Assembly (NCBI GenBank): GCA_965231095.1
Contig: OZ246416.1
Location: forward strand, 50,938-114,937
Direction of reading: 5' to 3'
DNA: 64,000 nucleotides
Origin: an uncultured Gammaproteobacteria bacterium
GTDB taxonomy: Bacteria; Patescibacteriota; Patescibacteriia; XYB2-FULL-38-15
The notes under the pieces were generated by a model. It saw only the letters and a program-made list of their open reading frames with translations, was not told the origin of the DNA and made no database searches. A program made the position numbers and the translations under genes. Of the stretch, positions 16,727 through 60,833 are shown piece after piece (position 1 is the first letter of the stretch; each line of letters opens with the position of its first letter).

Positions 16727-16819
16727 AAAGAGAATAAGAAGTAAGGGTTTTTAAAGTCAAAATTCCTATTTTAGTTTTTTATAATGTAAGGGGGATTTTG
16801 ACTTTTGAGTTTTATAAAT

Positions 16820-19800
16820 ATGTTTGTCCATCTCCACACCCACAGCCACTACTCTCTGCTTGACGGCTTGGCAAAACTTGATGATTTGATTGCCAAAGCC
16901 AAAGCAGAAAAGATGCCGGCGCTGGCCTTAACCGATCACGGCGTGATGTATGGTGTGGTTGAATTTTATCAAAAATGTCGGGCGGCCGGCGTAAAACCGA
17001 TTTTGGGAGTGGAGGCGTATCTCGCGAGAAACGGGCGGCAGAATAAACGGGCAAGAATTGACGAACGGCCATATCACCTCGTACTCCTCGCGAAAAATAA
17101 AACCGGTTATCAAAATCTTATCAAACTGACTTCCATTGCTCATTTGGAAGGTTTTTATTATAAACCAAGAATTGATTGGGAAATTTTGGAAAAATATCAC
17201 GAAGGATTGATTGCTCTCTCGGCTTGTCTTCAGGGGGAAATTCCCGCGTCGGTTTTAAACGGTGATTTAGAAAAAACTAAAGAATTAATTTTAAAATATC
17301 AAAATCTTTTTGGTCCGGAAAATTTTTATTTGGAAATACAGCACCATCCCTCAAGCGAAGAACAAAAAGTTGTAAATCGTGAGTTAATAAATTTTTCTAA
17401 AACCTTGGGCGTGCCGCTTGTCGCGACCAATGATATTCATTATTTAAACTCAGAAGACGCCGAAGCGCAGGATGTTTTGCTTTGCCTTCAGACTAAAAGA
17501 AAAATTAATGAAAAGGATAGAATGTGCATGTTGGGTGAAGATTATTCAATGCGACCGACAGAGCAGATGGAGAGAGATTTTAGCGCGACACCGGAGGCAA
17601 TCGCGAACACCGCAAAAGTTGCCGAGATGTGCAACGTGGAATTGGAGCTTGGGAAAATAATGTTGCCGCACTTTGAAGTGCCGGACGGGAAAACGGCGAA
17701 TGTTTACCTCCGTGAATTATGCGAGAAGGGTTTGGAAAAAAGATATGGGATTGTCCGTGATGGCGAAGAATTTATGGTGAAAGATGGCGCGGGAGAAGTG
17801 GATGTGAATAAAGTTATTGAAAGATTAAATTATGAATTGGGAGTAATTGATAAAACCGGATTTGCATCTTACTTTTTAATTGTTCAGGATTTTGTTAATT
17901 GGGCGAAAAATAATGGAATTGTTGTCGGGCCGGGACGTGGGTCGGCTGCCGGATCAATCGTGTCCTATTTAACAAACATTACAAACATTGATCCGTTGCT
18001 TTACAATTTGCTTTTTGAAAGATTTTTGAATCCGGAAAGAATCAGCATGCCTGATATTGATTTGGATTTTACCGACACCAGGCGCGACGAAGTTATCCGT
18101 TATGTGGAAGGAAAATACGGCCGTGATCATGTGGCGCAGATTATTACTTTTGGAACAATGGCCGCGCGCGCCGCGATCCGCGATGTCGGGCGCGTATTGG
18201 ATTTTCCGTATGGTTTTTGCGATCAGTTAGCAAAATTAATCCCCATGATGTTTACGCTTGATGAAGCTCTAAAAAATATTTTGGAATTTAAGGAAGTATA
18301 CGACAAAGATGTCGGCGCGAAAAAATTAATTGATACGGCGCGAAAATTGGAAGGAGTGGCACGCCACGCTTCAACTCATGCTTGTGGGGTTGTAATTACA
18401 AAAAATCCGCTGGATCACCACACGCCGCTGCAGTTCGCGAGTAGCGGCGACCAGACTATTGTTTCCCAATATTCTCTGCATCCGATTGAAGATTTGGGAC
18501 TTTTGAAAATGGACTTTTTGGGATTGAAAAATTTAACCATTTTGGAAAATACGCTGGGAATTATTGAAAAAATTCATGGTGAAAAAATTCACACGGAAAC
18601 AATTCCGCTGCAAGATGAAAAAACATTTGCGCTTTTGCGAAAAGGGGACACGACGGGTGTGTTCCAATTAGAATCCTCGGGCATGAAAAGATATTTGCGC
18701 GAGTTGAAACCGACAATTTTTGAAGACATCATTGCCATGGTTGCGCTCTATCGGCCGGGACCGATGGACTGGATACCGAGTTTTATTGCCGGGAAAAATT
18801 CAAATAAAAAAATAAAATATCTTCATCCAAAATTGGAGCCGATTTTGGCGACGACGCATGGCATCGCTGTTTATCAAGAACAAGTTTTGCAAATCGCCCG
18901 CGATCTCGCCGGCTTCACTCTTGGCGAAGCGGATATTTTGCGTAAAGCTGTCGGTAAAAAAATCGCCAAACTCCTGGCCGAACAAAAAGAAAAATTTATT
19001 AATGGTTGTATAAAAAATGGCATCAGTAAAGAAACGGCGGAAAATGTTTTTGCTTTTATTGAACCCTTCGCCGGTTATGGTTTTAATCGGTCGCACGCCG
19101 CCTGCTACGCGCGAATTGCTTATGAAACGGCATATTTCAAGGCAAATTATCCGGCCGAATTTATGGCCTCGCTTTTGACTTCAGACCAAGGGGACATTGA
19201 GCGCATCGCTGTTTTGGTTGAAGAATGCAAGCAGATGAAGTTGGAAGTTTTGCCGCCGGATATTAATGAAAGTTTTTCCACTTTTACGGTTGTGGCTGCA
19301 TCCCTCGCCGAAGGCCGGCCGCGCATCAGGTTTGGACTTTTGGCCGTGAAAAATGTTGGAGAAAATATTGTTAAAACGATAATTCATGAAAGAAAAGCAA
19401 ATGGGCCGTATAAAAATTTGGAAGATTTTCTGACGAGAGTCCAGACAAAAGATTTAAATAAAAAATCTTTGGAAAGTTTGATAAAATGCGGGGCGTTGGA
19501 TTTTTTTGGTGAGAGAAATCAGATGCTTCATAATTCGGACAGGCTACTTGATTTTACAAAAGATTTGGGGCGCGAAGCGGCGAGCCAGCAGACAAGTTTA
19601 TTTGGAATGATGGCGACGTCGTCGGGCGTTCCGACGCTACGGCTTGACCCCGCACCTGAGGCGACGAAAGAAGAAAAACTTTCTTGGGAAAAAGAACATC
19701 TTGGATTATACATCAGTGAGCATCCTTTAACCGAGTTTGCGCCCAGTCTCCGGGAAATTGTTGTGGCGTGTTCGGCGCTAAACCAATGTCCGCCCAATAC

Positions 19801-26650: not shown

Positions 26651-27055
26651 TCACGAGGTTTCCTTGACCTCGTGTATTTTGTCCTCCTTGGTGGCGACAA
26701 ACGACTTTTCTTGTTCACCAGCCACAAAGACGATTTCTAGCGTTTTCCACTCCCCGAGGGGTTCTTCGCGGCCCGTTTTCGGGTCGCGGAACTCAATCCT
26801 CGCATAATGGATGTTCTCTTCGTTCGAAAAATGATGGAGCCCCTGACAGCGTCCTCCATCAAGAGTCCGCTCGCCGCCGTTCACAATGAAGCGGAAAATC
26901 ACGTGGCTGGTGATCCAGTGGTAATTCACATCACCGGTTGCAGCCAAGCGAAGGTAAAGGCAGCCGTTCATGTAGTCGAGGTCAAGCCTCGTGATTCGGT
27001 CCAAGAGTTGCCGATGGAGTCTGCCATCGGCGAAGATACTTTTTACTTCACCCAT
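26651..27055 (-). CDS. GC-rich island A: hypothetical 134-aa protein, no recognisable domain
   Basis: ~58% GC versus ~38% for flanks; strong SD aaaGGAGtacgATG; upstream TTGACA-N17-TAAGAT promoter (27101-27129, minus); hairpin overlapping stop. Confidence 0.55.
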   Translation of the reverse strand: MGEVKSIFADGRLHRQLLDRITRLDLDYMNGCLYLRLAATGDVNYHWITSHVIFRFIVNGGERTLDGGRCQGLHHFSNEENIHYARIEFRDPKTGREEPLGEWKTLEIVFVAGEQEKSFVATKEDKIHEVKETS

Positions 27056-27100: not shown

Positions 27101-27129
27101 ATCTTATAATGATATCATAAATTTGTCAA
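27101..27129 (-). promoter_or_regulatory. sigma70-type promoter of island A (TTGACA-N17-TAAGAT, minus strand)
   Basis: Minus-strand reading cTTGACAaatttatgatatcattaTAAGATaag; contrasts with native extended -10 promoters. Confidence 0.5.
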
Positions 27130-27173
27130 GCCTTGAAGAAAGTAAGGTTTTTTGATAGAATAATTTTACGAGT

Positions 27174-28505: not shown

Positions 28506-28754
28506 CTAGCCGATCCTTTGGACGACTTTGACATCGTGGATCTTCTGGACGTCGAACCAGTGAGTTGCTTCGCAGAGCGGTTTGTGGGGTTGATCGTACC
28601 CGCAGGGCAAGAGTTGGAAGATGTGACCATGGACCGTGATCACCTCGCCGATAAAAGCGTCCCATGGGTCGACCCACAATTGTTTTCCCTCTTTAGCCGT
28701 CTTCACAAAAGAGATCAACTTGCCGAGGTACCTTTCGGCCGATGCTTCAGCCAT
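28506..28754 (-). CDS. GC-rich island B gene 3: 83-aa soluble His/Cys-containing protein (hypothetical)
   Basis: MAEASAERYLGK...ITVHGHIFQLLPCGYDQPHKPLCEATHW; SD GAGGAGGAGG; start overlaps stop of upstream gene (gATGgcTGA). Confidence 0.55.
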   Translation of the reverse strand: MAEASAERYLGKLISFVKTAKEGKQLWVDPWDAFIGEVITVHGHIFQLLPCGYDQPHKPLCEATHWFDVQKIHDVKVVQRIG

Positions 28755-28980
28755 CGTCTTCCTCCTCCTCTTCTTCGCAGTTTTTCTTGCGGGCGCGGCG
28801 GAGAGATTCAGCCACGCAAATGACAAGGACGACGGTCATGCCGACAAGCACGGCGATCATGTAGGCCTTTCGCCAGAAGGTCAGTCCCTCGGCGGGAAGA
28901 ACCACAATGACGCCGATCACGCAGAGAATCGCGAGTAGGGCGAAGAACAGAGCGCGTAGCACGCTCCAGAGTTGTTTCAT
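28747..28980 (-). CDS. GC-rich island B gene 2: 77-aa two-TM membrane protein with poly-Glu/Asp C-terminal tail (holin-like topology)
   Basis: MKQLWSVLRALFFALLAILCVIGVIVVLPAEGLTFWRKAYMIAVLVGMTVVLVICVAESLRRARKKNCEEEEEEDDG; SD GGGGGGAG; ATGA start/stop overlap with gene 1. Confidence 0.55.
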   Translation of the reverse strand: MKQLWSVLRALFFALLAILCVIGVIVVLPAEGLTFWRKAYMIAVLVGMTVVLVICVAESLRRARKKNCEEEEEEDDG

Positions 28981-29210
28981 GGGCGTGACTCCCCCCAACG
29001 CCGCCGGGCGAAAAGCGATGCCACCGAGGTGCCGACAACCGAAAGAGCAATCCCGACGAAGCATCCAAGGATCACTTCCGTCTTCAGCTCTCCGAAGAGG
29101 TTGGTATGCGCCGCCAGGGGAATCGCCGCGGCCAGGGTGCATCCGATCAGGGCGAAGACGAGCAGACAACGGCCCGTCCTATCCTCACGTCGCGATTCTT
29201 CAAGAGTCAT
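28977..29210 (-). CDS. GC-rich island B gene 1: 77-aa two-TM membrane protein (holin/antiholin-like topology)
   Basis: MTLEESRREDRTGRCLLVFALIGCTLAAAIPLAAHTNLFGELKTEVILGCFVGIALSVVGTSVASLFARRRWGESRP; SD GGAGGAAG 2 nt before ATG. Confidence 0.55.
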   Translation of the reverse strand: MTLEESRREDRTGRCLLVFALIGCTLAAAIPLAAHTNLFGELKTEVILGCFVGIALSVVGTSVASLFARRRWGESRP

Positions 29211-30284: not shown

Positions 30285-31850
30285 TTATGACAACTTCTTT
30301 TTAATAATTTCTTCGGCGACTTTTGGATTGGCCTTTCCTTGAGTTTTTTTCATTGTCTGGCCGATGAAGAATTGGAGAAGCGCTAGTTTACCTTGTTTAT
30401 ATTCCGCTACTTCCTCGGGATGTTCAGCGATCAGCGCGTCAATTATTTTTTCAAGTTCCCCGGTATCGCTAATTTGGCCAAGATTTTTACTTTCCATAAT
30501 CTGCGAAGGATCGCCGCCGGTCATCATCATTTCTTCAAGAATTTTTAAGGCCGTCGGACCGGAAATTTTATTTTGATAAATCATGGTGATAAATTCGGCA
30601 AAATTTTCCGGAGTGATTTTCAAGCGGCGAATATCAATTTTATTGTCCGCCATCAAACCGCCGAGTTTATTGATAAGCCATCCGGCGAGGAGGCGAACTA
30701 ATTTATGTTTATGCTTTTCCCAAATTTCTTTTTCCGTGCCTTCTACTTCTTCCAGCGACAAAAGCCATGACTGAAGTTCGGAAATAACGTTTTCCGCGTA
30801 GCTAGCTAATTTTTTATCTTCAACTAAAATTCGCGTTTCTTCTTCGGTAAATTCGTATTGAGTTATAAATCGGATTTTTTTGGCGCGCGGCAATTCGGGC
30901 AGATGGCCGATAACTTTATCGCGTAATTTACTTAAATCAAGTGGCGGCAAATCCGGTTCGGGAAAATAGCGATAATCATTTTCCGCTTCTTTGGTGCGCT
31001 GCGGAACGGTTTTCTGCCCCGCATCATCCCAGCCGCGAGTCGTCGTGACGGCCGGCGGTTTTCCGGCTTCCCAAAGTTCGGTTTGTCTTTTTATTTCATA
31101 CTCAAGCGCTCGCTCAACCGCCCGGAAAGAATTTAAATTTTTAATTTCCGTTTTCGCATTAAGTTTAAGAAGATTTTTTTCTTTAGCAGGATTATCCAAA
31201 GCTTCTCGAAGAGAAATATTGGCGTCGCAGCGGAGATGCCCCTTTTCCATATCGGCATCGGAAATTTCAAGATAGCGGGCAATGAGCCGCAATTCTTGCA
31301 TAAAAATTTTTGCTTCAAGTGGTGAATGCAAATCCGGTTCAGTGACAATCTCCAAAAGCGGCGTGCCGGAACGGTTGTAATCAATCAGGCTGTATTTTCC
31401 GTCTTCGCTATGGAAATTTTTAGCCGCGTCTTCTTCAAGATGGACGCGGTTGATTTTTATTTTTGCCCAAGGGCGTTGTTTTTTTTCATCCTTGGTCGGA
31501 ATATCAATTTCCAGAAATCCGCCCAGACAGACAGGTTTGTCGTATTGAGAAATTTGATAACCCTTTGGCAGATCAGGATAAAAATATTGTTTGCGGTCAA
31601 ATTTTGATTCATCTTGGATTTTACAATTCAAAGCCATGGCCAGAAGTCCCGCCCATTCGAGCGCCTGCTCATTTATGACTGGCAATGTGCCGGGATGGCC
31701 CATGCAGATCGGGCAGACGGTAGAGTTCGGCGGTTGGTCTTCGCCGGTATTGTCGCAACCGCAGAACATTTTTGATTTTGTTTTCAATTGGACATGGATT
31801 TCAAGCCCAATGACCGGGACGAGATGCATAAAAAATAATTCAAAAATCAA
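30285..31850 (-). CDS. gatB: aspartyl/glutamyl-tRNA amidotransferase subunit B
   Basis: VIGLEIHVQLKTKSKMFCGCDN...CPICMGHPGTLPV, GatB/YqeY C-terminal domain; start may be the internal Met (MHLVPVIGLE) at 31829. Confidence 0.9.
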   Translation of the reverse strand: MIFELFFMHLVPVIGLEIHVQLKTKSKMFCGCDNTGEDQPPNSTVCPICMGHPGTLPVINEQALEWAGLLAMALNCKIQDESKFDRKQYFYPDLPKGYQISQYDKPVCLGGFLEIDIPTKDEKKQRPWAKIKINRVHLEEDAAKNFHSEDGKYSLIDYNRSGTPLLEIVTEPDLHSPLEAKIFMQELRLIARYLEISDADMEKGHLRCDANISLREALDNPAKEKNLLKLNAKTEIKNLNSFRAVERALEYEIKRQTELWEAGKPPAVTTTRGWDDAGQKTVPQRTKEAENDYRYFPEPDLPPLDLSKLRDKVIGHLPELPRAKKIRFITQYEFTEEETRILVEDKKLASYAENVISELQSWLLSLEEVEGTEKEIWEKHKHKLVRLLAGWLINKLGGLMADNKIDIRRLKITPENFAEFITMIYQNKISGPTALKILEEMMMTGGDPSQIMESKNLGQISDTGELEKIIDALIAEHPEEVAEYKQGKLALLQFFIGQTMKKTQGKANPKVAEEIIKKKLS

Positions 31851-31885
31851 AAGTCAAAATGCAAAATTAATTTTGTAATAAAAAT

Positions 31886-37296: not shown

Positions 37297-37329
37297 CAAA
37301 AAAACACCCCGATTAGAGGGTGTTTTTTA
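37297..37329 (-). terminator. intrinsic terminator downstream of rplA
   Basis: aaaaaaACACCCcgattagaGGGTGTtttttat. Confidence 0.65.
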
Positions 37330-37342
37330 TGTAAAATTTTAA

Positions 37343-38020
37343 TTATACGCTAAGTTTTATTCCCGGGCCCATGGTGGTGCAAAGTACCGCGGTTTGGATG
37401 TAGACACCCTTGGATGCCGCCGGTTTGGCTTTTTTCACCACTTCAATAAACATGGTCAAATTTTCCAAAAGCTTTTCTTTATCGTAGGAAACTTTGCCGA
37501 GTAATTGATGAATATTCCCGCCATCATCATTTTTGAAATTGATTTTTCCTTTTTTTAATTCACCAATTATTTTTTTGATGTTTGGGTTAACAGTTTCTGT
37601 TTTTGGATTTGGCATCAAACCCTTTGGACCCAAAATTTTCGCGATCTGGGCCAATTTAGGCATCATGGAGGGCGTTGCCACGGCGATTTCAAAGTTTGCT
37701 CTTTCTGTGGATTTGATTTCTTTAATCAAGTCCTCACCGCCGACAATTTCCGCTCCGGCTTCTTTCGCTTCTTTTTCCAAGGCCGGTTCAACGAAAGCGG
37801 CAATTTTTTTGGTCTTGCCGATTCCGTGCGGTAAAACTAAAGTGCCGCGCACGAGCTGGTCGCCTTTTTTAGGATCAATACCAAGTTTGATGTGGACTTC
37901 CACGCCGGCATCAAATTTTTCTTTTGGTCCGTTTTTTATTAAGTCCAAAGCCTCGGCGAGCGAATAGCTCTTTTTCGGGTCAATGGATTTTTTTGTTTCT
38001 TCGTAGCGTTTTCCGCGCAT
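37343..38020 (-). CDS. rplA: 50S ribosomal protein L1
   Basis: 225 aa; GKTKKIAAFV, L1 fold motifs. Confidence 0.9.
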   Translation of the reverse strand: MRGKRYEETKKSIDPKKSYSLAEALDLIKNGPKEKFDAGVEVHIKLGIDPKKGDQLVRGTLVLPHGIGKTKKIAAFVEPALEKEAKEAGAEIVGGEDLIKEIKSTERANFEIAVATPSMMPKLAQIAKILGPKGLMPNPKTETVNPNIKKIIGELKKGKINFKNDDGGNIHQLLGKVSYDKEKLLENLTMFIEVVKKAKPAASKGVYIQTAVLCTTMGPGIKLSV

Positions 38021-38044
38021 AAGTTTTTGGTGGTAATAACGTCC

Positions 38045-38190
38045 CCCACTAATTTTGCCATCGATAGATAAAAGTAATTTTGAGTGATTAATTTATTTTC
38101 TAAATTTGTGGCGCCGCTTGCCCGAATAGGGCAGGGCTATTCGCCCTCGCGGCGCCCCCGGGATCGGGAGCAAAATTAGTGGGGGACTCC
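38045..38190 (-). promoter_or_regulatory. large structured leader upstream of rplA: 17-bp outer inverted repeat enclosing GC-rich hairpins (possible L1-binding autoregulatory mRNA mimic or inserted GC-rich element)
   Basis: tcccccactaattttgc (38046-38062) pairs with gcaaaattagtggggga (38166-38184); inner ggcgccgc...gcggcgcc and cgaatag..ctattcg stems. Confidence 0.45.
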
Positions 38191-38203
38191 CACAAATTAT
38201 TTT

Positions 38204-38641
38204 TTAAACTTCTTTATTGTTTTCTTTCGACTCTTTTGTTTCTTTGCTAATCATTTTCCAGTGCCACAAGAACAGGGGAATAGCAACAACGAGCATGGAA
38301 ATATCGCGAACAGCGTTTTTCTGTTTTCTCGCAACTTTCATAATTCCTTGCTGATCCTGCCAATTTTTATAATCAACCAACCAATTTTGAATCTGCAATT
38401 TTTCGTCGGCAGTCAGGTCGCATTTTTCCGCGCAACGCTCGGCCGTTTCACCCTGCGCCCGCTCATTAATCATGTAAGGAACCGGCGGCGCCCATTCATC
38501 GGCGCGATCAGCGTTTTTAAAGACCCAAGTTTTGAGGCCGAGATTTGCGAGATCAACCGTTCCCCAAACAATCATCATTAAAGCAATCAAGGCAATCAGG
38601 TAGAAATAAACCGTTCGGATTGAGTTTAGTTTGATGGCCAT
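38204..38641 (-). CDS. hypothetical membrane protein inserted between rplK and rplA
   Basis: Start set at MAIKLNSIRTVYFYLIALIALMMIVW (TM helix); upstream track extension is GC-rich overlap with island G. Confidence 0.5.
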   Translation of the reverse strand: MAIKLNSIRTVYFYLIALIALMMIVWGTVDLANLGLKTWVFKNADRADEWAPPVPYMINERAQGETAERCAEKCDLTADEKLQIQNWLVDYKNWQDQQGIMKVARKQKNAVRDISMLVVAIPLFLWHWKMISKETKESKENNKEV

Positions 38642-38724
38642 ACATTGTAAATTAAGAGAAATAATTTTTTGTTCGCATAAAATTAGGTGGGGGAGTACTT
38701 GCGGAAGCACGCCCCCAACCTGGT

Positions 38725-38940
38725 CTACTTGGTCGCTGGTGGTGTTACGGCGTCGCCGTGATGGACGGGACAATTGGGGTCGTCTCGCTTAATCACATTC
38801 AGCTTTATCCCCATGCCAGTGCGCAAATGTCCGCAGGTGCATCTTGGGTCTACTCTGCCCAATCCGAAGCACGAGCAAACGGCAAAGTTGCAGTCGTCAT
38901 AGAATACGGCGCCGCACTTGTCACACCGGAATTCATGCAT
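38725..38940 (-). CDS. GC-rich island G: 71-aa Cys-rich putative metal-binding protein
   Basis: MHEFRCDKCGAVFYDDCNFAVCSCFGLGRVDPRCTCGHLRTG...NCPVHHGD (8 Cys, 4 His); SD GGAGG 7 nt before ATG; hairpin tgggggagtacttgcggaagcacgccccca at 38691-38722. Confidence 0.5.
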   Translation of the reverse strand: MHEFRCDKCGAVFYDDCNFAVCSCFGLGRVDPRCTCGHLRTGMGIKLNVIKRDDPNCPVHHGDAVTPPATK

Positions 38941-39008
38941 CTCTTTCCTCCTTCTCTTTACGGGAACAAAAAATTATTTCTCAAAATTTTTAATGAACTT
39001 TTATTATT

Positions 39009-39434
39009 TTATCCAACGACTTCCAAACCCATCTGCCGCGCCGTGCCTTCAATAGTTCTCATCGCCGCGTCAATATCATGAGCATTCAAGTCCGGCATTT
39101 TTTTCTCGGCGATTTCCCGGATTTGCGCTTTTGTCACTTTGCCAACTTTTTCCTGAAGCGGTTTTCCTGAACCCTTGGCGATTCCCGCTGCTTTTTTCAA
39201 AAGTTCAGCCGCCGGAGGAGTTTTTAAAATGAAAGTATAGGTGCGGTCTTCGTAAACCGTGATTTCCGCCGGAATAACATCGCCGGCCATTTTTGCAGTC
39301 GCGGCATTGAACTTCGTGCAGAACTCAGCGATATTCAAACCATGCTGACCCAAGGCCGGGCCGATTGGCGGCGCGGGGTTTGCTTTAGCAGCCTCAATTT
39401 GTAATTTTATTACTGTCTTAATTTTTTTTGCCAT
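39009..39434 (-). CDS. rplK: 50S ribosomal protein L11
   Basis: [35 protein letters not shown]. Confidence 0.9.
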
Positions 39435-39501: not shown

Positions 39502-40047
39502 TTATATTTTTTTAACTTGTAAAAAATCCAGTTCTACCGGAGTTTCGCGGCCAAACATACTCACTAATACTTTAACTTTTCCGCGAGCTTCGTCAATCGC
39601 CGAAATTTTTCCTTCAAAGCCCTTAAACGGCCCGTCATTAATTTTAACCGGCGCGCCGACCGTGACATCAATTTTATATTGCGGTTCTTCTTCACCCATT
39701 CTTTTTTGTAAAACTTTTATTTCCGCTTCGGAAAGGGGAGTCGGGATTGTGCCCGTGCCGATAAAACCGGTGACATTCGGCGTATTTCGGACAACATACC
39801 ACGAATCATCAGTGACAAGCATTTCCACTAAAACATATCCCGGAAAAATTTTTTCAATGACTGTCCGGCGTTTGCCGTTTTTTATTTTTATCTTTTTTTC
39901 GGTGGGAATCAAGACATTGAAAATTTTGTCCTGCATTGCCATTGATTCAATTCTTTGTTTTAAATTGTGGGCGACATTTTCTTCATAACCGGAATAAGTG
40001 TGAATCGCGTACCAGAGCCGGCCTCTTTGGGCTATTTGTTTAGGCAT
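39502..40047 (-). CDS. nusG: transcription termination/antitermination factor NusG
   Basis: WYAIHTYSGYEENV NGN domain, KOW domain GPFKGFEG. Confidence 0.9.
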   Translation of the reverse strand: MPKQIAQRGRLWYAIHTYSGYEENVAHNLKQRIESMAMQDKIFNVLIPTEKKIKIKNGKRRTVIEKIFPGYVLVEMLVTDDSWYVVRNTPNVTGFIGTGTIPTPLSEAEIKVLQKRMGEEEPQYKIDVTVGAPVKINDGPFKGFEGKISAIDEARGKVKVLVSMFGRETPVELDFLQVKKI

Positions 40048-40094
40048 AAATAAAATTCAAAAGTCAAAATTCAAAAGTCAAAAGTTTTGTAAAA

Positions 40095-40295
40095 TTACTT
40101 TATATATTTTTCCAAGAGCCAAGTAAAAAGAAAATCAAGCGCTCCAAGAAAAACAGCCACGCCCAAACTTATGCCGATCACGGCCAGAGTGTGGTTTGTG
40201 GTTTCGCGTCTTGTCGGCCAGACAACTTTCTTTAATTCCCGATAAGAATCGCGAAAGTAGTTTGTTAATTTGTTGTTGGGAATGGATAGTTGCAT
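40095..40295 (-). CDS. secE: preprotein translocase subunit SecE
   Basis: 66 aa, single C-terminal TM; conserved position upstream of nusG. Confidence 0.8.
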   Translation of the reverse strand: MQLSIPNNKLTNYFRDSYRELKKVVWPTRRETTNHTLAVIGISLGVAVFLGALDFLFTWLLEKYIK

Positions 40296-42717: not shown

Positions 42718-43632
42718 ATGGCGAAGTATGAAAAGCTGAACCTGGGTCAGATTGAAGCGCTCGTGAACATCTTGGGTGGCATGGAGGTCGTGAAGAAGAT
42801 TCTTCGCGGGACGAAGAAGCCTCTTCCCCCGGACAAAGGCTTTCGGTCCCTTTTTGACAACTACGGCCGCCGCGTTGCGCCTCCTACGATGAGCGACAAG
42901 GGAGGAGCCGATCCGGAGGTGTGTTTGGCTCAGCCGGCGATGCATCTTCCACCGGGACCGGGAACAAGGTTCAAGGGTTTGTGCGAACGCCTTGGCTGGC
43001 AGAACCAGATGACTCCGGAAGAATTTCGCGCGCGGGTGGACAAGGCGGTAGAGAAGATCAACTTCGGCAGCATCAGAGAAGAGGTGAGGGGAATTTTGGG
43101 TGGTGTGTATCTGCCCTTTGGTCTTCCGCAGGTGACCTCCAGCGATTGCGGGGAGATCCTTGACGAACTCGGCTTGATCAATGCGGTTGAGCGTGTTTTC
43201 AAGGAAAGATTTCCCGAGGGGCAGTTTTTCGGACAAGAAAAATCCCTGAAGGGAGGCTTCCGCTTGATCGAAGGAAGTCGCCACGAGCGATTTTTGGAGG
43301 CCTTGACAAAGGAGCCGGTCGTTGCCATCTACTTCCCATTGGCGCTCCAAGGGTATTTGCCCGATAAGGCCGTCGAGCAGATGGAGAGCCTGCCGGAAGA
43401 GTTTCTGCTTTCCGGTGTGGTTGATACAGCGGCGGCGATCATGATGTATCCGGAAGTTCTACTTCGGGACACCTGCGTGCCGCAGCTCGGATGTTCGGCA
43501 GTGAAGCGCTGGGTGACCGGAGTTTCCTCATTCGATGTCAGTGACGGCAGCGACAAGATCACGCTCGCCTTCGGGGGGTGCCAGATCTTTGGGCGCGGCA
43601 AGTTTACTTCCGGCCTCACCGTCATCGCGTAG
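42718..43632 (+). CDS. GC-rich island C: hypothetical 304-aa protein, no recognisable domain
   Basis: ~60% GC; SD GGAAGGAGA 6 nt before ATG; TTGACT promoter-like element at 42605; downstream terminator 43695-43728. Confidence 0.6.
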   Translation: MAKYEKLNLGQIEALVNILGGMEVVKKILRGTKKPLPPDKGFRSLFDNYGRRVAPPTMSDKGGADPEVCLAQPAMHLPPGPGTRFKGLCERLGWQNQMTPEEFRARVDKAVEKINFGSIREEVRGILGGVYLPFGLPQVTSSDCGEILDELGLINAVERVFKERFPEGQFFGQEKSLKGGFRLIEGSRHERFLEALTKEPVVAIYFPLALQGYLPDKAVEQMESLPEEFLLSGVVDTAAAIMMYPEVLLRDTCVPQLGCSAVKRWVTGVSSFDVSDGSDKITLAFGGCQIFGRGKFTSGLTVIA

Positions 43633-45537: not shown

Positions 45538-45621
45538 TTTAAAAGTCAAAGGTCAAAAATCAAAGGTCAAAAATTAAAGTCGAAATCCGAAATTTTGTCT
45601 TTTGAATTTTGACTTTTTGTT

Positions 45622-48628: not shown

Positions 48629-48738
48629 TTTTATATTTTAAAAATAACCAAACGATCTCGGCCGGCGAGGTCTTTTTTTACCCTCACACCAATGCATTGG
48701 TGTGAGGGTTTATTTCTCTTTGGGCTGGGGGTATAATT

Positions 48739-49706: not shown

Positions 49707-50297
49707 TTACGGGGAAGTGATGTCCTTCGTCCCGTCGTAGGGATCGCCGGAGTCGGCGGAATCGTCGGCGGGCGGCGCAGCGGGCGAGACGACCTCGACT
49801 TCCTCCTCGATGTCCTCGGCCACCACGACCGTGGTTTCCGGCGCGTCTTCGAGGATCTCGACCATCTTCATCGCCTGGCGCACACAGGCCGACAGCTCGG
49901 CGGTGGAGAAGGCGTAGGAGAGTTGTTCGAAGGTAACCCGGCGTCCTGGTTCCGTGTCCTTCGACATCCAGTGTTCGATCAGCTTGGCGAGATCATCGTC
50001 GGAGACGCGTTTCAGGATCTCCTCGATCGCGGATTTTGCGCCGTTCTCGATACCGCCGAGCATCGCCTGGCGCATGATGGGCACGGTGTCTTTCTTGTCA
50101 CCGGGCCAGATCCCGAGTAGATCGCCAACGATCTTCTCGAAGGTGTGCACTTGGGCAATGTGAGCCAGGCCGCTGGCCCGGCTCAAATTGATGTGGTGCA
50201 AGATGATCCAGATGTTCAGGACGCCGAGATCCACGAAGTGCTGGAGCATCGCCGCTAGCGTCAACTTCTTGTCTCTTTCCTTCTTGGATTCCGCCAT
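49707..50297 (-). CDS. GC-rich island D gene 2: hypothetical ~197-aa protein (helical, acidic C-terminal tail)
   Basis: MAESKKERDKKLTLAAMLQHFVDLGVLNIWIILHH...; ~62% GC; minus-strand promoter cTTGACAa-N17-TAAGGT at 50342-50370; 5' UTR palindrome CTCCGATTAATCGGAG. Confidence 0.55.
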   Translation of the reverse strand: MAESKKERDKKLTLAAMLQHFVDLGVLNIWIILHHINLSRASGLAHIAQVHTFEKIVGDLLGIWPGDKKDTVPIMRQAMLGGIENGAKSAIEEILKRVSDDDLAKLIEHWMSKDTEPGRRVTFEQLSYAFSTAELSACVRQAMKMVEILEDAPETTVVVAEDIEEEVEVVSPAAPPADDSADSGDPYDGTKDITSP

Positions 50298-50382
50298 TGT
50301 CTTCCACTCGCTCCGATTAATCGGAGTCCTTTCTATCCGCACCTTAGTTTAAAAAATAAAATTTGTCAAGATAAAAAAAGAG

Positions 50383-50445: not shown

Positions 50446-50608
50446 TGCCCAGCGGGTGCCGTGAGGCTGGCCGGCTGGGCTCAGTCGCGTGACCCGCCCG
50501 GGGGGTAGGAGGGCACCGGGGAGCCGACGCGAGCTTGGGGAACGGAGAGTTCTCGAGCGAACTCGCAAACTCTCACGTTATTGGTGGGTAAGTTACAGGC
50601 GGGTCTTG

Positions 50609-50881
50609 TCAGGGTCGGGGGCAGTTCCGGACGACATGCATTCGCTTGCGCCTGGCGCGGGCGACGCCGTCCGTGTACTTCTTGCCCTTGCGTTCGGCGA
50701 AAGTGTGCATCGAGCAGTAGTGCCCGGTATTCCCGCTACGGAGAATCGTTCCACAGTCGGGTTCCTGGCATCGCCGCGGCTTGCCATCGTCGGTGCTCCG
50801 ACCGCTGTCGTGCACGTCGCCGAGCGAATTGGCGCCGACCGTGCCGGTACCCTGATCCATTCCGAGCGCGCTCCAGTCCAT
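50609..50881 (-). CDS. GC-rich island D gene 1: 90-aa Cys/His-cluster (zinc-ribbon-like) protein, possibly nucleic-acid binding
   Basis: ...RRCQEPDCGTILRSGNTGHYCSMHTF...; SD GGAGGAGGAAGG before ATG; 5' UTR hairpin ccttgcgt..acgcaagg. Confidence 0.55.
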   Translation of the reverse strand: MDWSALGMDQGTGTVGANSLGDVHDSGRSTDDGKPRRCQEPDCGTILRSGNTGHYCSMHTFAERKGKKYTDGVARARRKRMHVVRNCPRP

Positions 50882-51004
50882 CCTTCCTCCTCCTCAACCT
50901 TCCCTATTATCAACTCGTCCTGTCCACCAGGCCGAGGCTTAGGGCCACCTTCCTTGCGTTTTGACGCGTGCCAATAACGCAAGGCCACCCTGTTTGTTGA
51001 TTTT

Positions 51005-51065
51005 AGAATATAATAAAAAGCTTAATTTGTCAACCCCTTGACAAATTTTAAGATTGTGGTAGAGT
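51005..51065. promoter_or_regulatory. divergent sigma70-type promoter pair with palindromic overlapping -35 boxes (TTGTCAAccccTTGACAA)
   Basis: Plus: TTGACA(51038-43)-N16-TAGAGT(51060-65). Minus: TTGACA-N16-TATTCT (plus agaata 51005-10). Perfect inverted repeat ttgtcaa/ttgacaa around cccc. Confidence 0.55.
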
Positions 51066-51489: not shown

Positions 51490-52530
51490 TTAGTTTATAT
51501 CTTTTTTCAATACCTCAATAATTCCGTCCAATTCGCCGTCCATTACGTTATTAATATTGTGCCAACTTTCTTTTACCCGATGATCGGAAACGCGGTCTTG
51601 GGGAAAATTGTAAGTTCTGATTTTTTCCGCGCGCATGGCCGAACCGATTTGCGAACGCCGCGACGCAACTTCTGCCGCCTGGCGTTTTTCTTGTTCCATG
51701 GCAAAAAGACGGGCGCGCAAAACCTGCATGGCTTTTTCCCGGTTTTGCTGCTGCGATCGTTCGTCTTGGCAGGCGACAACAAGCCCGGTTGGAAGATGCG
51801 TAATTCTTACGGCCGAATATGTTGTTTGCACGCTTTGTCCGCCGTGGCCGCCGGATAAAAATGTATCAATGCGCAAATCCTTTGGTTCAATTTTTATATC
51901 AATTTCTTCGGCTTCGGGAAGTACGGCGACCGAGGCGGTTGAGGTATGAACCCGTCCGCTTTTTTCCGTGTCCGGAACGCGCTGAACGCGGTGCACGCCG
52001 CTTTCAAATTTTAAATTTCCCCAGGCGCCTTTTCCAATGACGGAAAAAATAATTTCTTTAAAACCGCCGAGGTCAGTGCGGCTTGAGGATATTAATCTTG
52101 TCTGCCAACCTTTCCATTCGGCAAACATGGAATACATTCTGAATAATTGCGCGGCAAAAAGCGCGGCCTCGTCTCCGCCCGCGCCGGCCCGGATTTCCAC
52201 AATAATATTTCTTTTGTCCAGCGGATCTTTTGGCGTCAGCTCTTCTTTGATTTCTATTTCAAGCGCTGCCTTATCTTGCCGAATTTTTTCCAACTCATCT
52301 TTCGCGATGGCGACCAGTTCCGGAACATTTTGTTTTGCGACTGTTTCTGTGTCGGCTTCTTCTTTTTCCCATTTATGAAATTTTTTTATTTTTTCCATCA
52401 CGTCTTTTATCTCGCTGTATTCACGGGAAACGGTTTTTAATTTTTCCGGATTAGAAACCACCTCGGGGCGGGCAAGTTCCGCTTCGAGTTCGGCAAAACG
52501 TTTTTCAGCTTTTTGGATTTCCGGGAGCAT
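51490..52530 (-). CDS. prfA: peptide chain release factor 1
   Basis: GGQ motif [12 protein letters not shown], PxT-type recognition motif RVPDTE, RF-1 size 346 aa; normally directly upstream of prmC. Confidence 0.85.
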
Positions 52531-52863: not shown

Positions 52864-52925
52864 AAAATAGATTATTTATTTACATTAATCTTAATTTAAC
52901 ATAAGGCCGTGAGTTTGGCAAGGGG

Positions 52926-52956
52926 TTGACAAAATTACGGGGTGGAGTAATAAGAT
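52926..52956 (+). promoter_or_regulatory. sigma70-type promoter of island E (TTGACA ... TAAGAT)
   Basis: ggggTTGACAaaattacggggtggagtaaTAAGATgag. Confidence 0.5.
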
Positions 52957-53285: not shown

Positions 53286-53621
53286 TTTTTTATTTTCAAA
53301 AATCTCTCCCCCTCCTTTCGAAGGAGGGGTTAGGGGTGGTTTTTAAAAACTCCCACCCCACCTAACCTCCCCTCGGGCAGGGGAGGAATATTGAGCATTT
53401 GCCCTTGCCCCCACACCAATTTCAGCGAGGCCATTTTTATCCGAGTTTAAAATAAAAAAATTGGTGTGGGGGCTTGCATTATTTTTGCTTTTGTGTAAAA
53501 ATAGATGAAAGTCATTTATTAATAGTAATCCCACATGTTTTGCCTTTAAAACTTGTTCCTGATCCCCGCCACTGCGGGGACCCGCAAGTTTTGGCAAAAC
53601 AGAGGTTAAAAAGGAAAATTT

Positions 53622-54407: not shown

Positions 54408-54536
54408 TTCAATTGAAGTAATTAGTAATTGGTAATTAGTGCAGAACCACCCCCAACCCCCTCCTTCTAAAGGAGGGGAAAATGGTGGTTGAAATTACTC
54501 GTTGCCCGTTACGCGTTACTCGTTACTTATAAACAT

Positions 54537-59622: not shown

Positions 59623-59659
59623 ACCTGACAATTAACAGTTGACAATTAACAATTAACAG

Positions 59660-60565
59660 TTGACTATGAAAAATAAAGGATATTTTTTGGTTTTAGGAAC
59701 GGCGATAATTTCCGGCGTTTCTATTTTTGTAAATCAGTTTGGCGTTAAAGTTATCAATTCGGATATTTTTACCGGTTTGAAAAATATAGTGGTGGCCGTA
59801 ATTTTGTTGTGTCTTATTTTTTGGTTTAAAGAATGGAAGTTATTGGCAAAATTAAAAATCAAGGAATGGCTGACTTTGGTTTTAATCGGTTTGGTCGGCG
59901 GCAGCATTCCGTTTTTACTTTTCTTCAAGGGCCTGGCCGCGACAAGCGGAGCGAGCACGTCTTTTATTCATAAAACTTTATTTATTTATGTAATAATTTT
60001 GGCGGCGCTGTTTTTGAAAGAAAAAATAAGTAAAAATTTAGCGATCGGCGCGGCCTTGCTTTTGCTCGGCAATGTGGCGCTCTTGAAAATTTTTAATGGA
60101 TTTCAATTCGGTTATGGCGAGTTATTGGTTTTGTTTGCTACGCTGTTTTGGGCGGCGGAACAAATTATTTCTAAGCGGGCGCTTCAAGATATTTCTCCGA
60201 AAATTGTCGCTTGGGGCAGAATGTTTTTCGGATTTTTATTTATTTTTATTTTTTGGGCGGCGACGGGTCAGTTGAAATTGCTGGGCGGGGTGGGAGCGGC
60301 GGAATTAAGTTGGGTTTGGATTACAGCCGTTTTTCTTTTAGGCTATGTTTTAACTTGGTATTCTGGCTTGAAATATATAAAAGTTTCAACCGCGGCGTGT
60401 ATTTTATCTTTAGGCGCGCCAATTACCAGCTTGCTTGAAATGGCGCAAAAAGGAATTTTTGATTGGCAGATTTTTCTCGGGAGTTTGTTGATGTTTGCGG
60501 GAGTAATTTTAGCGGTAGATTTATTTTCACGGATTAAAATGGCGGCAACAAACGCGATCCGTTAA
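59660..60565 (+). CDS. EamA/DMT superfamily transporter, flanked by ~35-bp inverted repeats
   Basis: 10 TM helices in two EamA-like halves; flanking caattaacagttgacaattaac (59629-59663) and its reverse complement (60561-60597). Confidence 0.65.
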   Translation: MTMKNKGYFLVLGTAIISGVSIFVNQFGVKVINSDIFTGLKNIVVAVILLCLIFWFKEWKLLAKLKIKEWLTLVLIGLVGGSIPFLLFFKGLAATSGASTSFIHKTLFIYVIILAALFLKEKISKNLAIGAALLLLGNVALLKIFNGFQFGYGELLVLFATLFWAAEQIISKRALQDISPKIVAWGRMFFGFLFIFIFWAATGQLKLLGGVGAAELSWVWITAVFLLGYVLTWYSGLKYIKVSTAACILSLGAPITSLLEMAQKGIFDWQIFLGSLLMFAGVILAVDLFSRIKMAATNAIR

Positions 60566-60599
60566 CTGTCAACTGTTAATTGTTAACTGTTTATTTACC

Positions 60600-60833
60600 A
60601 TGTGTTTTGGTGTCCCTTGTAAAATTGAAAAAGTAAATAAAAATAAAGCCACCATAAAAAATGGCGGCAAAGTTTTTGATATAGACACCTCGCTCTTGCC
60701 AAAAATAAAAAAAAATGATTGGATATTGGTGCAGGGCAATATTGGAATGAAGCAAATATCGGAGGATGAAGCAAAAAGTTGCCTTGCCGTTTTGGACGAA
60801 TTCCAAAGTAAAGAGGGGAAGGGAGGACTGTGA
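60600..60833 (+). CDS. hypC: [NiFe]-hydrogenase maturation chaperone HypC/HupF family
   Basis: N-terminal MCFGVPCKI (MCxxxP signature), ~77 aa. Confidence 0.75.
   Translation: MCFGVPCKIEKVNKNKATIKNGGKVFDIDTSLLPKIKKNDWILVQGNIGMKQISEDEAKSCLAVLDEFQSKEGKGGL

What the first reader, a model, noticed from the sequence alone, without database searches (positions are those of the whole stretch)
38690..38960. Island G: Cys-rich 71-aa protein plus a membrane protein inserted between rplK and rplA
The secE-nusG-rplK-rplA cluster is among the most conserved in bacteria. Here rplK and rplA are separated by a GC-rich mini-gene (8 Cys, 4 His, strong SD, terminator hairpin) and a native-GC membrane protein. 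The Cys spacing suggests two zinc-ribbon/knuckle units.
Basis: seen in the sequence. Interest (0 to 1): 0.55.

Follow-up and report, generated by a model that had tools for sequence, protein, structure and literature searches.

The report
Small zinc-protein gene inserted after rplK
A real 71-residue, probably two-zinc protein gene from an undescribed family of Patescibacteria (CPR) small proteins sits as a compact, inverted-repeat-bracketed insert between ribosomal genes rplK and rplA, but the membrane protein next to it is a normal lineage feature and this junction is often interrupted in these bacteria.

Summary
On the minus strand the order is secE, nusG, rplK (39009-39434), a 71-aa ORF (38725-38940; 8 Cys, 4 His, GGAGG + ATG, hairpin of -22.6 kcal/mol), a 145-aa membrane protein (38204-38641) and rplA (37343-38020).

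The ORF is a real gene. An exhaustive HMMER search found about 40 small proteins with the same pattern, CxxCG...CPxCxGxG...CxC...CPxH (7 Cys + 1 His, so probably two zinc sites). They lie in CPR-like chromosomes, each at a different locus. They match no Pfam or NCBIfam family and no solved fold, and none was found in phages or plasmids.

The window's copy looks recently acquired. Its GC3 is 0.63 against a median of 0.44. None of 80 related rplK loci has it. Its 275-bp GC-rich core (SD, ORF, hairpin) sits at the centre of a 39-nt AT-rich inverted repeat, the strongest local one in the window.

The "island" idea fails for the membrane protein. It is DUF5671, has native GC, and lies between rplK and rplA in at least 8 other Patescibacteria.

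The junction is permissive. A conserved L1-binding leader lies directly upstream of rplA, here with a 147-nt hairpin.

Protein function is unknown. Interest is moderate.

The parts
39009..39434 (-). rplK (ribosomal protein L11), upstream neighbour
   Evidence: Pfam Ribosomal_L11_N and Ribosomal_L11, E 3.5e-27 and 2e-30
38957..38995 (.). Right arm of the 39-nt inverted repeat. It is the 5' arm on the mRNA and lies between the rplK stop and the mini-gene's SD. The two arms together have GC 0.21.
   Evidence: the repeat finder I2/I1: 39 nt, 85% complementary, 275 nt apart. It is the top-scoring local IR in the 64-kb window: score 21 against 13-19 in 20 randomisations.
38947..38951 (-). Shine-Dalgarno GGAGG, 6 nt upstream of the ATG
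   Evidence: read from the sequence
38725..38940 (-). 71-aa Cys-rich protein gene (cys71), member of an unnamed CPR family with the pattern CxxCG / CPxCxGxG / CxC / CPxH
   Evidence: ORF. 43 cluster representatives at E<=1e-3, about 39 of them genuine relatives and mostly proteins of 60-90 aa. Alignments A1, A3, A4. Profile score 86.3 bits.
38685..38721 (-). Terminator-like hairpin directly after the cys71 stop codon, followed by UAAUUUUA
   Evidence: RNA fold -22.6 kcal/mol, z = -3.99, 0 of 200 shuffles as stable
38643..38681 (.). Left arm of the inverted repeat. It is the 3' arm on the mRNA and ends 2 nt before the DUF5671 start codon.
   Evidence: The long closing stem appears in both the MFE and centroid folds of 38630-39010 (z = -3.7).
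38204..38641 (-). DUF5671 membrane protein (145 aa from ATG 38641). Native GC; a lineage-conserved occupant of the rplK-rplA gap.
   Evidence: PF18920 E 1.6e-11, 44.7 bits. DUF5671 at the same position in at least 8 other loci. GC 0.437, GC3 0.49.
38028..38196 (-). rplA leader: P1 GUGG (38193-38190) / CCAC (38033-38030), GA bulge, giant P2 hairpin (IR 38163-38187 / 38041-38065 enclosing a GC-rich hairpin at 38110-38156), joiner GUUAUUA, then 9 nt to the AUG. A putative L1-binding autoregulatory site.
   Evidence: Motif conserved upstream of rplA in about 30 related loci. Covariation: 92.7% of cells paired, 51 double-change cells against 17.5 +/- 3.4 in shuffles. The two best hits of model R1 in the window are its two halves. 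Fold -79.6 kcal/mol, z = -6.6. Matches the L1-interacting RNA preceding rplA described in PMC3616713.
37343..38020 (-). rplA (ribosomal protein L1), downstream neighbour
   Evidence: Pfam Ribosomal_L1, E 1e-55
37299..37328 (-). Intrinsic-terminator-like site after rplA (12-bp stem plus T run)

Best explanation
cys71 is a functional gene for a small, probably two-zinc protein. Site 1 would be Cys4 (C6, C9, C22, C24) and site 2 Cys3His (C34, C36, C57, H60). It belongs to an undescribed family confined, as far as seen, to Patescibacteria/CPR chromosomes.

In this genome it is a recent horizontal arrival. A minimal 275-bp cassette (SD, ORF, its own hairpin) lies exactly at the symmetry centre of an AT-rich palindromic spacer downstream of rplK. 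The two halves of that spacer now bracket it as a 39-nt inverted repeat.

It landed upstream of two native features: a lineage-conserved DUF5671 membrane-protein gene, and a conserved L1-binding leader that regulates rplA on its own. Because the L1 control site sits directly before rplA rather than before rplK, the rplK|rplA junction tolerates inserts in this lineage. The cassette has no promoter of its own that I could recognise, so it is probably transcribed from the rplK side.

Shown: the gene family, ligand conservation, compositional foreignness, the IR, absence from relatives, DUF5671 synteny, and the leader motif with covariation.

Inferred: zinc binding, the pairing of ligands into sites, the insertion-into-a-hairpin mechanism, read-through transcription, and what the protein does. 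My best guess is a structural zinc micro-protein that binds a macromolecular partner, possibly connected with translation.
For: Gene and family
- An exhaustive HMMER search gave 43 representatives at E<=1e-3, 6 of them at E<=1e-10, mostly full-length matches of 60-90 aa.
- Invariant or nearly invariant columns are C6, C9, G10, C22, P, C25, G, G, C34, C36, C57, P, H60.
- The window copy scores 86 bits, as well as other members.
- AF2 models reach pLDDT 77 and 81 with two beta-hairpins.

Distribution
- All 11 contexts with usable flanks are CPR-like chromosomal loci, and all differ: DnaB/RecR; Suf/PFOR; TyrRS/DnaJ; DprA/SerRS; PilM/RuvX; MMPL; TsaD/ValRS; rpsI/grpE; fusA.
- No neighbour is shared between contexts.
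- There are no phage, plasmid or viral-contig matches.

Recent acquisition
- GC3 is 0.634 against a gene median of 0.442. Observed GC is 0.549 against 0.497 expected from host codon usage (P about 0.007).
- Most homologues track their host's GC3.
- No family member lies within 4 kb of rplK in 80 relatives.

Inverted repeat
- It is the best local IR in the window and beyond all 20 randomisations.
- Arms have GC 0.21 and the core 0.55. Deleting 38682-38956 leaves a 98-nt spacer that folds into one hairpin of -29.2 kcal/mol.
- The three relatives whose rplK-DUF5671 spacer exceeds about 80 nt (L004, L017, L032) carry strong hairpins there, e.g. L017 at -46.4 kcal/mol; five others have short, unstructured spacers.

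Native neighbours
- DUF5671 synteny.
- L1 leader: and PMC3616713.
Against: - The window copy is the only family member lacking the Pro of CPxC. It has C-S-C, a one-residue deletion, so site 1 geometry may be altered or the gene may be starting to decay.
- No close homologue (more than 55% identity) exists, so purifying selection could not be tested.
- No empty-site relative is available, so insertion into a pre-existing hairpin cannot be told apart from an element that brought its own terminal repeats.
- The closest homologue (P0004, 54% identity) lies on a low-GC contig (0.37), so no GC-rich donor is identified.
- The translation-related neighbourhood (6 of 10 distinct contexts) is not clearly above what gene-dense CPR genomes give by chance.
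Confidence: 0.6

Rival explanations
1. The 353-bp unit (38643-38995) is itself a small mobile element, a MITE-like cassette whose 39-nt terminal inverted repeats were brought in with the gene and are mobilised in trans by a transposase encoded elsewhere.
For: The IR arms end exactly at the borders of the foreign GC-rich core. The total size of 353 bp is in the MITE range. The IR is the strongest in the window.
Against: - No target-site duplication is visible (flanks ...GGCCATA | AACTTTT...).
- No second copy of the arms exists in the 64-kb window or in 97 fetched loci.
- An exact two-arm pattern had no hit in metagenome contigs (low power, because this genome seems absent from that collection).
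- None of 14 other family members has a flanking IR: best scores 5-8 against 21 here.
- The arms have the AT-rich composition of native spacers (GC 0.21).
Confidence: 0.15
2. The inverted repeat is kept for an RNA function and is not just a scar. In the rplK-...-rplA transcript the two arms form a stem of about 39 bp that loops out the cys71 cistron. This would create an RNase III-type processing site, or couple DUF5671 translation to upstream events, because the 3' arm ends 2 nt before the DUF5671 AUG and would mask its ribosome-binding region. This reading is compatible with the main explanation.
For: The stem is predicted in both MFE and centroid structures of 38630-39010 (z = -3.7, 0 of 100 shuffles as stable). 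The arm position relative to the DUF5671 start comes from the sequence. No SD is visible before DUF5671.
Against: There is no comparative support: the structure exists in one genome only, so covariation cannot be tested. There are no RNA data. Six of 39 positions are mismatched.
Confidence: 0.2
3. The IR-bracketed segment is an invertible DNA switch (inverton) that turns cys71 on or off by flipping it relative to rplK-driven transcription.
For: An IR flanks a 275-bp segment that holds a complete promoterless gene. This geometry resembles known invertons (my own knowledge of IR-flanked phase-variable regions).
Against: The independent Logan assembly of SRR8863431 shows the same orientation. No recombinase gene was noticed in the ORFs from 34.5 to 43.6 kb, which were not all scanned against protein families. 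Arms of 39 nt at 85% identity are longer and less perfect than typical recombinase sites.
Confidence: 0.04
4. cys71 is a decaying or non-functional remnant, dead on arrival. The CPxC to CSC deletion has disabled the first zinc site, and the ORF persists only because the insertion is recent.
For: It is the only one of about 46 family members without the Pro and the two-residue spacing in the second knuckle. It is found in a single genome or cluster only.
Against: The ORF is intact, with a strong SD and an ATG. All eight conserved ligand positions are occupied. Its profile score is as high as that of typical members. CxC is itself a working ligand pair in the family's second site. An extra Cys17 replaces the His that is frequent at that position in the family.
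Confidence: 0.1
5. One reading: cys71 plus the membrane protein form one foreign island that broke an otherwise conserved rplK-rplA pair.
For: Both genes lie between rplK and rplA. The closest relatives by L11 identity (L002 at 86%, L003 at 84%) have neither gene.
Against: DUF5671 has native GC and GC3. It lies outside the inverted repeat. It recurs between rplK and rplA in at least 8 other Patescibacteria loci with 27-42% protein identity, which indicates old, vertical residence.
Confidence: 0.05

Closest known systems
C(P)XCG zinc-finger micro-proteins of haloarchaea (e.g. HVO_0758, HVO_2753, Brz; PMC11241148, PMC10716476, PMC2253796)
   Same: Stand-alone proteins of about 60-75 aa built around Cys knuckles. 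The N-terminal knuckle here is CxxCG (C6-D-K-C9-G10, with G10 at least 90% conserved). They are scattered through the genome without conserved partners. 15 of 40 family members give weak hits to DUF7129 and 21 of 40 to the HypA zinc knuckle.
   Different: This family is bacterial (CPR), not archaeal. Only one strict C(P)XCG motif is present; the second knuckle is CPxCxGxG (CSCFGLG in the window). There is a second conserved ligand set, CxC...CPxH, which implies two metal sites. No sequence match reaches any family threshold.
Zinc ribbon / rubredoxin-like knuckle domains (Pfam Zn_ribbon_3, Zn_ribbon_8, RUBY_RBDX, Zn_ribbon_LapB)
   Same: Two CxxC-type knuckles about 12 residues apart flanking a beta-hairpin (AF2: strands 3-5 and 12-14).
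DnaJ cysteine-rich domain (CXXCXGXG repeats, PF00684)
   Same: The family's second knuckle, CPxCxGxG, is literally a CXXCXGXG motif, and two zinc centres are expected.
   Different: There is one such motif rather than four, and no Pfam DnaJ_CXXCXGXG hit. The window copy has lost the spacing (CSCFGLG).
L1-interacting autoregulatory RNA preceding rplA (Fu et al. 2013, PMC3616713). This applies to the 38028-38196 element, not to cys71.
   Same: A short stem with an internal GA bulge directly upstream of rplA, between rplK and rplA, as reported for Cyanobacteria, Actinobacteria and Chloroflexi. P1 and P2 covary in 27 Patescibacteria sequences.
   Different: It is found here in Patescibacteria. In the window the P2 hairpin is expanded to 147 nt, against about 10-30 nt in relatives. 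There is no Rfam model. L1 binding is untested.
Insertion of foreign DNA into palindromic or hairpin sequences, e.g. IS elements that target REP palindromes and group II introns that target terminators (recalled from memory, not tested)
   Same: The foreign core lies exactly at the centre of a palindrome, and there is no target duplication.
   Different: No transposase, intron or integrase is associated. The cargo is a bare SD-ORF-hairpin unit.

Membership tests
Unnamed CPR Cys7His micro-protein family (defined here) | 60-90 aa protein with full-length similarity to the family profile | tested here: met
   71 aa; 86.3 bits, E 8.6e-25 against the A1 profile; 33-54% identity to members
Unnamed CPR Cys7His micro-protein family | Eight conserved ligand positions: CxxCG, C(P)xC, CxC, CPxH | tested here: met
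   C6, C9, G10, C22, C24, C34, C36, C57, P58, H60 are all present
Unnamed CPR Cys7His micro-protein family | Second knuckle written CPxCxGxG (Pro at least 90% conserved, two residues between the Cys) | tested here: not met
   The window has C22-S-C24-F-G-L-G, a one-residue deletion with no Pro. This is unique among the aligned members.
C(P)XCG zinc-finger micro-proteins (haloarchaea) | [quoted passage not shown] | tested here: not met
   Only C6-D-K-C9-G10 fits. The second knuckle is CSCFG. Length is 71 aa.
C(P)XCG zinc-finger micro-proteins (haloarchaea) | Binds zinc | not testable with these tools
   Inferred only from conserved Cys/His. The cited work shows that several such proteins do not bind zinc.
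Pfam zinc-ribbon families (Zn_ribbon_3 and relatives) | Score at or above the Pfam gathering threshold | tested here: not met
   Best hit is PF13248 at 14.9 bits against 27. Across 40 members no zinc-ribbon-type family was reported near its gathering score; the best E-value among them was 5e-06 for Zn_ribbon_LapB, matched by 3 of 40 members.
DnaJ cysteine-rich domain | Four CXXCXGXG repeats; Pfam PF00684 hit | tested here: not met
   One motif in the family, none intact in the window copy; no PF00684 hit
DUF5671 (PF18920), for the membrane protein 38204-38641 | Score at or above the gathering threshold of 28.4 bits | tested here: met
   44.7 bits, E 1.6e-11. Syntenic homologues score 36.6-77.9 bits.
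L1-interacting mRNA leader, for 38028-38196 | Short closing stem with an internal G-A/A bulge, located directly before rplA | tested here: met
   GUGG-GA-[P2]-GUUAUUA-CCAC ending 9 nt before the AUG. The same layout occurs in about 30 relatives with covariation. Description in PMC3616713.
L1-interacting mRNA leader | Binds ribosomal protein L1 and represses translation | not testable with these tools
   Needs filter binding or reporter assays
MITE / TIR-bounded non-autonomous element | Terminal inverted repeats | tested here: met
   39-nt arms, 85% complementary
MITE / TIR-bounded non-autonomous element | Target-site duplication and multiple genomic copies | tested here: not met
   No direct repeat flanks the arms. 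There is no other copy in the window or the fetched loci or in metagenome contigs. The rest of the 886-kb genome could not be searched.
Inverton (invertible segment) | Both orientations present in reads; a site-specific recombinase | tested here: inconclusive
   The second assembly has the same orientation. No recombinase was noticed in the surrounding ORFs, which were not all scanned. Reads were not available.
Anti-phage defence proteins (PADLOC) | Match to a PADLOC model | tested here: not met
   No hit for cys71, a canonical member, or DUF5671 at E<=1

The most novel reading that the evidence does not exclude
CPR bacteria may move a private family of two-zinc micro-proteins around as bare, promoterless SD-ORF-hairpin cassettes. 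These would integrate at the apex of palindromic spacers or terminators inside essential operons and ride on ribosomal-protein transcription. The resulting long stem would then loop the new cistron out of the mRNA. This would be a gene-capture route with no recognisable transposase or integrase. It may be helped by the lineage's habit of regulating rplA from its own L1 leader, which leaves the rplK|rplA junction free.
Probability: 0.1. Interest if true: 0.65.

Novelty: new variant of a known kind. Interest (0 to 1): 0.38.

Why it matters
Small proteins of CPR/Patescibacteria are almost wholly uncharacterised. This work defines a compact, recognisable family: about 45 cluster representatives, 7 Cys + 1 His invariant, no Pfam or NCBIfam model and no solved fold. 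The family could be expressed and tested for metal content and partners.

It also shows that a textbook-conserved ribosomal gene pair is routinely split in this radiation, often by a DUF5671 membrane protein. A simple reason is offered: the L1 autoregulatory site lies directly before rplA.

The inverted-repeat-bracketed insert is a clean natural example of a minimal gene landing in the middle of a palindrome. If it recurs, it would point to an unrecognised route of gene gain in reduced genomes.

None of this overturns existing ideas. The value is descriptive and hypothesis-generating.

Tried and rejected
- Word-indexed protein search: found only the protein itself, which wrongly suggested an orphan. 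The exhaustive HMMER search corrected this.
- Pfam, NCBIfam, PHROGs and PADLOC: nothing above threshold.
- PDB sequence profile search: only spurious C2H2 or rubredoxin-knuckle similarities.
- The search for related loci with family alignments A1 and A2: failed for lack of a conserved 7-10-column stretch. I replaced it with hand-made degenerate DNA patterns: 0 hits in viral contigs and 6 in metagenome contigs.
- Phage and plasmid tblastn: no match.
- Conserved partner gene among homologue neighbourhoods: none.
- Flanking inverted repeats around 14 other family members: none.
- Arms and 147-nt element against all fetched loci: only AT-rich chance matches. A loose 'CCCCCAC..AATT' motif occurs at a few places in the window but does not form a repeat family.
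- Rfam on the window, the locus and 16 relatives: no family for either structured spacer.
- Covariance model R1 of the rplA leader: could not span the 147-nt P2 and matched only the two halves separately.
- GC-rich donor: the closest homologue is on a GC 0.37 contig.
- Metallothionein and ribosomal zinc-protein paralogue ideas: dropped for lack of any profile hit.

Full report
**What is there**

The window is a low-GC (0.438) Patescibacteria/CPR chromosome segment. The best L11 match among species representatives is a Candidatus Komeilibacteria MAG at 86%. The source contig is 886 kb.

On the minus strand the genes run as follows:
- gyrB, secE (40095-40295), nusG (39502-40047), rplK (39009-39434)
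- a 71-aa ORF (38725-38940)
- a 145-aa membrane protein (38204-38641)
- rplA (37343-38020), then a dCMP deaminase

The 71-aa product has 8 Cys and 4 His. It has a GGAGG 6 nt before its ATG. A hairpin at 38685-38721 (-22.6 kcal/mol, z = -4.0) follows the stop codon and is itself followed by UAAUUUUA.

**Is the mini-gene real?**

The word-indexed search returned only the protein itself. The exhaustive HMMER scan of 1.84 billion representatives returned 43 proteins at E<=1e-3. After setting aside three long repetitive proteins as spurious, almost all are 60-90 aa and match end to end at 33-54% identity.

Alignments show invariant or nearly invariant C6, C9, G10, C22, Pro, C25, G, G, C34, C36, C57, P58 and H60. 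The pattern is CxxCG ... CPxCxGxG ... CxC ... CPxH.

Seven Cys plus one His give eight ligands, which is the number needed for two tetrahedral zinc sites. The simplest reading is an N-terminal Cys4 ribbon and a C-terminal Cys3His site. An interleaved arrangement cannot be excluded.

AF2 gives two beta-hairpins with pLDDT 77 for the window protein and 81 for a canonical member.

Nothing known matches:
- Pfam hits to zinc-ribbon, HypA and DUF7129 knuckles are all sub-threshold.
- NCBIfam, PHROGs and PADLOC are empty or insignificant.
- A PDB profile search gives only generic knuckle similarities.

The window copy scores as well against the family profile as other members (86 bits). It is unique in having C-S-C instead of C-P-x-C, and a Cys at position 17, where many members have His.

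**Where the family lives**

Eleven contexts could be read. All are CPR-like chromosomal neighbourhoods and all differ:

| Locus | Neighbours |
|---|---|
| L082 | between dnaB and recR, as a tandem pair whose second copy the gene caller missed |
| L083/84 | after a Suf/NifU cluster |
| L085-87 | between TyrRS and dnaJ |
| L088 | between dprA and SerRS |
| L089 | near pilM/ruvX |
| L091 | next to an MMPL gene |
| L093 | between tsaD and ValRS |
| L095 | a tandem pair directly after rpsI and before grpE |
| L098 | upstream of fusA |

No neighbour is shared between contexts. Degenerate-pattern scans of viral contigs and tblastn against phage and plasmid collections found nothing.

Six of ten distinct contexts touch a translation gene. 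That is suggestive, but it is not clearly above chance in such genomes. The family has a median net charge of +3.

**Is it an island?**

For the mini-gene, yes:
- Its GC3 is 0.634 against a median of 0.442 for 57 window genes.
- Only about half of its GC excess comes from amino-acid composition: expected GC 0.497, observed 0.549, P about 0.007.
- Most homologues track their host's GC3.
- No family member lies within 4 kb of rplK in 80 related loci.

For the membrane protein, no:
- It is DUF5671 (44.7 bits against a cutoff of 28.4) with native GC.
- DUF5671 genes occupy the same rplK-rplA gap in L004, L007 (a double domain), L013, L015, L023, L017, L032 and L064. L075 has one after rplK, but no rplA was found in that locus.

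More generally, 18 of the 80 loci carry more than 400 nt between rplK and rplA, and about 19 have no rplA within about 4 kb. All of these are Patescibacteria-like. Every non-CPR locus has a gap of 18-198 nt. Some CPR lineages are known to lack L1 altogether (bioRxiv 10.1101/2022.01.07.475337).

**The inverted repeat**

The mini-gene is bracketed by 39-nt arms (38643-38681 and 38957-38995, 85% complementary). This is the highest-scoring local inverted repeat in the 64-kb window. It scores 21, against maxima of 13-19 in 20 composition-preserving randomisations.

The arms are AT-rich (GC 0.21) and the 275-bp core is GC-rich (0.55). The composition switches exactly at the inner ends of the arms.

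Removing the core leaves a 98-nt rplK-DUF5671 spacer that folds into one long hairpin (-29.2 kcal/mol). Relatives whose rplK-DUF5671 spacer is longer than about 80 nt also carry strong hairpins there (L017 at -46.4, L032 at -58.2, L004 at -17.4 kcal/mol). Relatives with short spacers (L007, L013, L015, L023, L064) show no significant structure.

No target duplication is visible. No other copy of the arms was found. No other family member is flanked by such a repeat.

I therefore favour insertion of a bare SD-ORF-hairpin cassette at the centre of a pre-existing palindromic spacer. A TIR-bearing element is the main alternative. The two cannot be separated without an empty-site relative.

In RNA the arms are predicted to close a long stem around the cistron. 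The stem's 3' strand ends 2 nt before the DUF5671 start codon. A processing or coupling role is possible but untested.

**The second structured spacer**

The second-best local inverted repeat of the window (38041-38058 / 38170-38187, 18 nt perfect, extendable to 25 nt) lies between DUF5671 and rplA. The whole spacer folds at -79.6 kcal/mol (z = -6.6).

Comparison of rplA upstream regions in relatives shows a conserved motif: G(U/C)GG-GA-[hairpin]-GUUNNNA-CC(A/G)C, ending about 5-30 nt before the AUG in most relatives.

On 27 sequences, 92.7% of cells pair, against 37-52% when the partners are slid. There are 51 double-change cells against 17.5 +/- 3.4 in shuffles. The second P1 pair switches cleanly between U-A and C-G.

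This fits the published L1-interacting RNA, which in several phyla lies directly before rplA (PMC3616713). Rfam has no model that detects it.

The window's version has the same P1, GA bulge and joiner, but its P2 hairpin is expanded to 147 nt. A covariance model built from the relatives puts its two best window hits on the two halves.

This leader explains why the junction tolerates inserts. rplA carries its own control site, so upstream insertions need not disturb L1 autoregulation.

**Mechanism and limits**

Shown:
- a real, conserved micro-protein family with eight conserved metal-ligand positions
- a compositionally foreign copy, absent from relatives at this site, at the centre of a significant palindrome
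- a native DUF5671 gene and a native L1-type leader downstream

Inferred:
- zinc binding and 2:1 stoichiometry
- expression by read-through from rplK
- insertion into a hairpin apex
- any cellular role

My working guess is a structural zinc micro-protein that binds a protein or RNA partner, perhaps related to translation. The evidence for that is thin. The CSC variant leaves open that this particular copy is impaired.

**Verdict**

The thing is a new variant of a known kind: a small zinc-knuckle protein from an undescribed CPR family, with an unusual inverted-repeat-bracketed insertion geometry. Interest is moderate.

Noticed in passing
window 38028-38196 (-): Conserved rplA leader: GUGG-GA-[P2]-GUUAUUA-CCAC, ending 9 nt before the AUG. 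It matches the L1-interacting RNA type and has a P2 hairpin expanded to 147 nt. The same motif, with covariation, lies upstream of rplA in about 30 Patescibacteria loci. No Rfam model detects it.
   Followed up: yes
loci L002-L081 (rplK neighbourhoods): In Patescibacteria the rplK-rplA adjacency is broken in about 37 of 80 loci, by inserts of 0.4-3.7 kb or by the absence of rplA within about 4 kb. A DUF5671 membrane-protein gene lies between rplK and rplA in at least 8 of them. Non-CPR loci all have gaps of 18-198 nt.
   Followed up: partly
window 38204-38773 (-): Public gene calls give the DUF5671 protein 189 aa from a TTG at 38773. That start overlaps cys71 and reads through its hairpin and the IR arm. 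The ATG at 38641 (145 aa, MAIKLNSIRTVYFYL...) fits the N-termini of homologues better.
   Followed up: partly
window 59628-59664 and 60561-60595: A second whole gene, an EamA-family transporter at 59660-60565, is bracketed by an inverted repeat. It scores 20, second only to the cys71 repeat, and is built from repeated AACAGTTGACAATTAAC-like units. Unlike cys71, the enclosed gene has native GC (0.39).
   Followed up: partly
window 51026-51045, 52914-52933, 50357-50370, 51037-51050, 27119-27152: A recurring palindromic intergenic motif, TTTGTCAA-nnnn-TTGACAAA / CTTGACAAATTT. It may be bidirectional promoters or an operator. Copies flank the release-factor gene (51490-52530) and a GC-rich ORF (50489-50977).
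   Followed up: no
window 42718-43632 (+), 49707-50342 (-), 50489-50977 (+), 26651-27055 (-), 28747-29169 (-), 60830-61567 (+): Other ORFs with strongly elevated GC3 (0.60-0.81 against a median of 0.44). Five have no Pfam hit and one is DUF6390. No cys71 paralogue lies among them.
   Followed up: partly
L082 3195-3422 and about 3488-3712; L095 9482-9766 and 9785-10048: The Cys-rich family occurs as tandem pairs in two genomes. In L082 the second copy was missed by the gene caller, which called an opposite-strand ORF instead. In L095 the pair sits directly after rpsI at the end of the rpsM-rpoA-rplQ-rplM-rpsI cluster.
   Followed up: partly
window 40052-40086, 31842-31881, 45541-45617, 16753-16834: AT-rich repeats of the type AAAAGTCAAAATTCAAAAGTCAAAAG recur in several intergenic spacers in both orientations (families D9, D16, I4, I9). 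Their meaning is unknown.
   Followed up: no
window 53309-53336 and 54451-54478; 48680-48709; 53407-53473: GC-rich palindromic hairpins: CCCCTCCTT-nnnn-AGGAGGGG, ACCCTCACACCAATG/CATTGGTGTGAGGGT, and GCCCCCACACCAATTT...AAATTGGTGTGGGGGC. They loosely share a CCC(C/T)CAC..AAT core with the hairpins after cys71 and DUF5671. They may be this genome's terminator style.
   Followed up: partly
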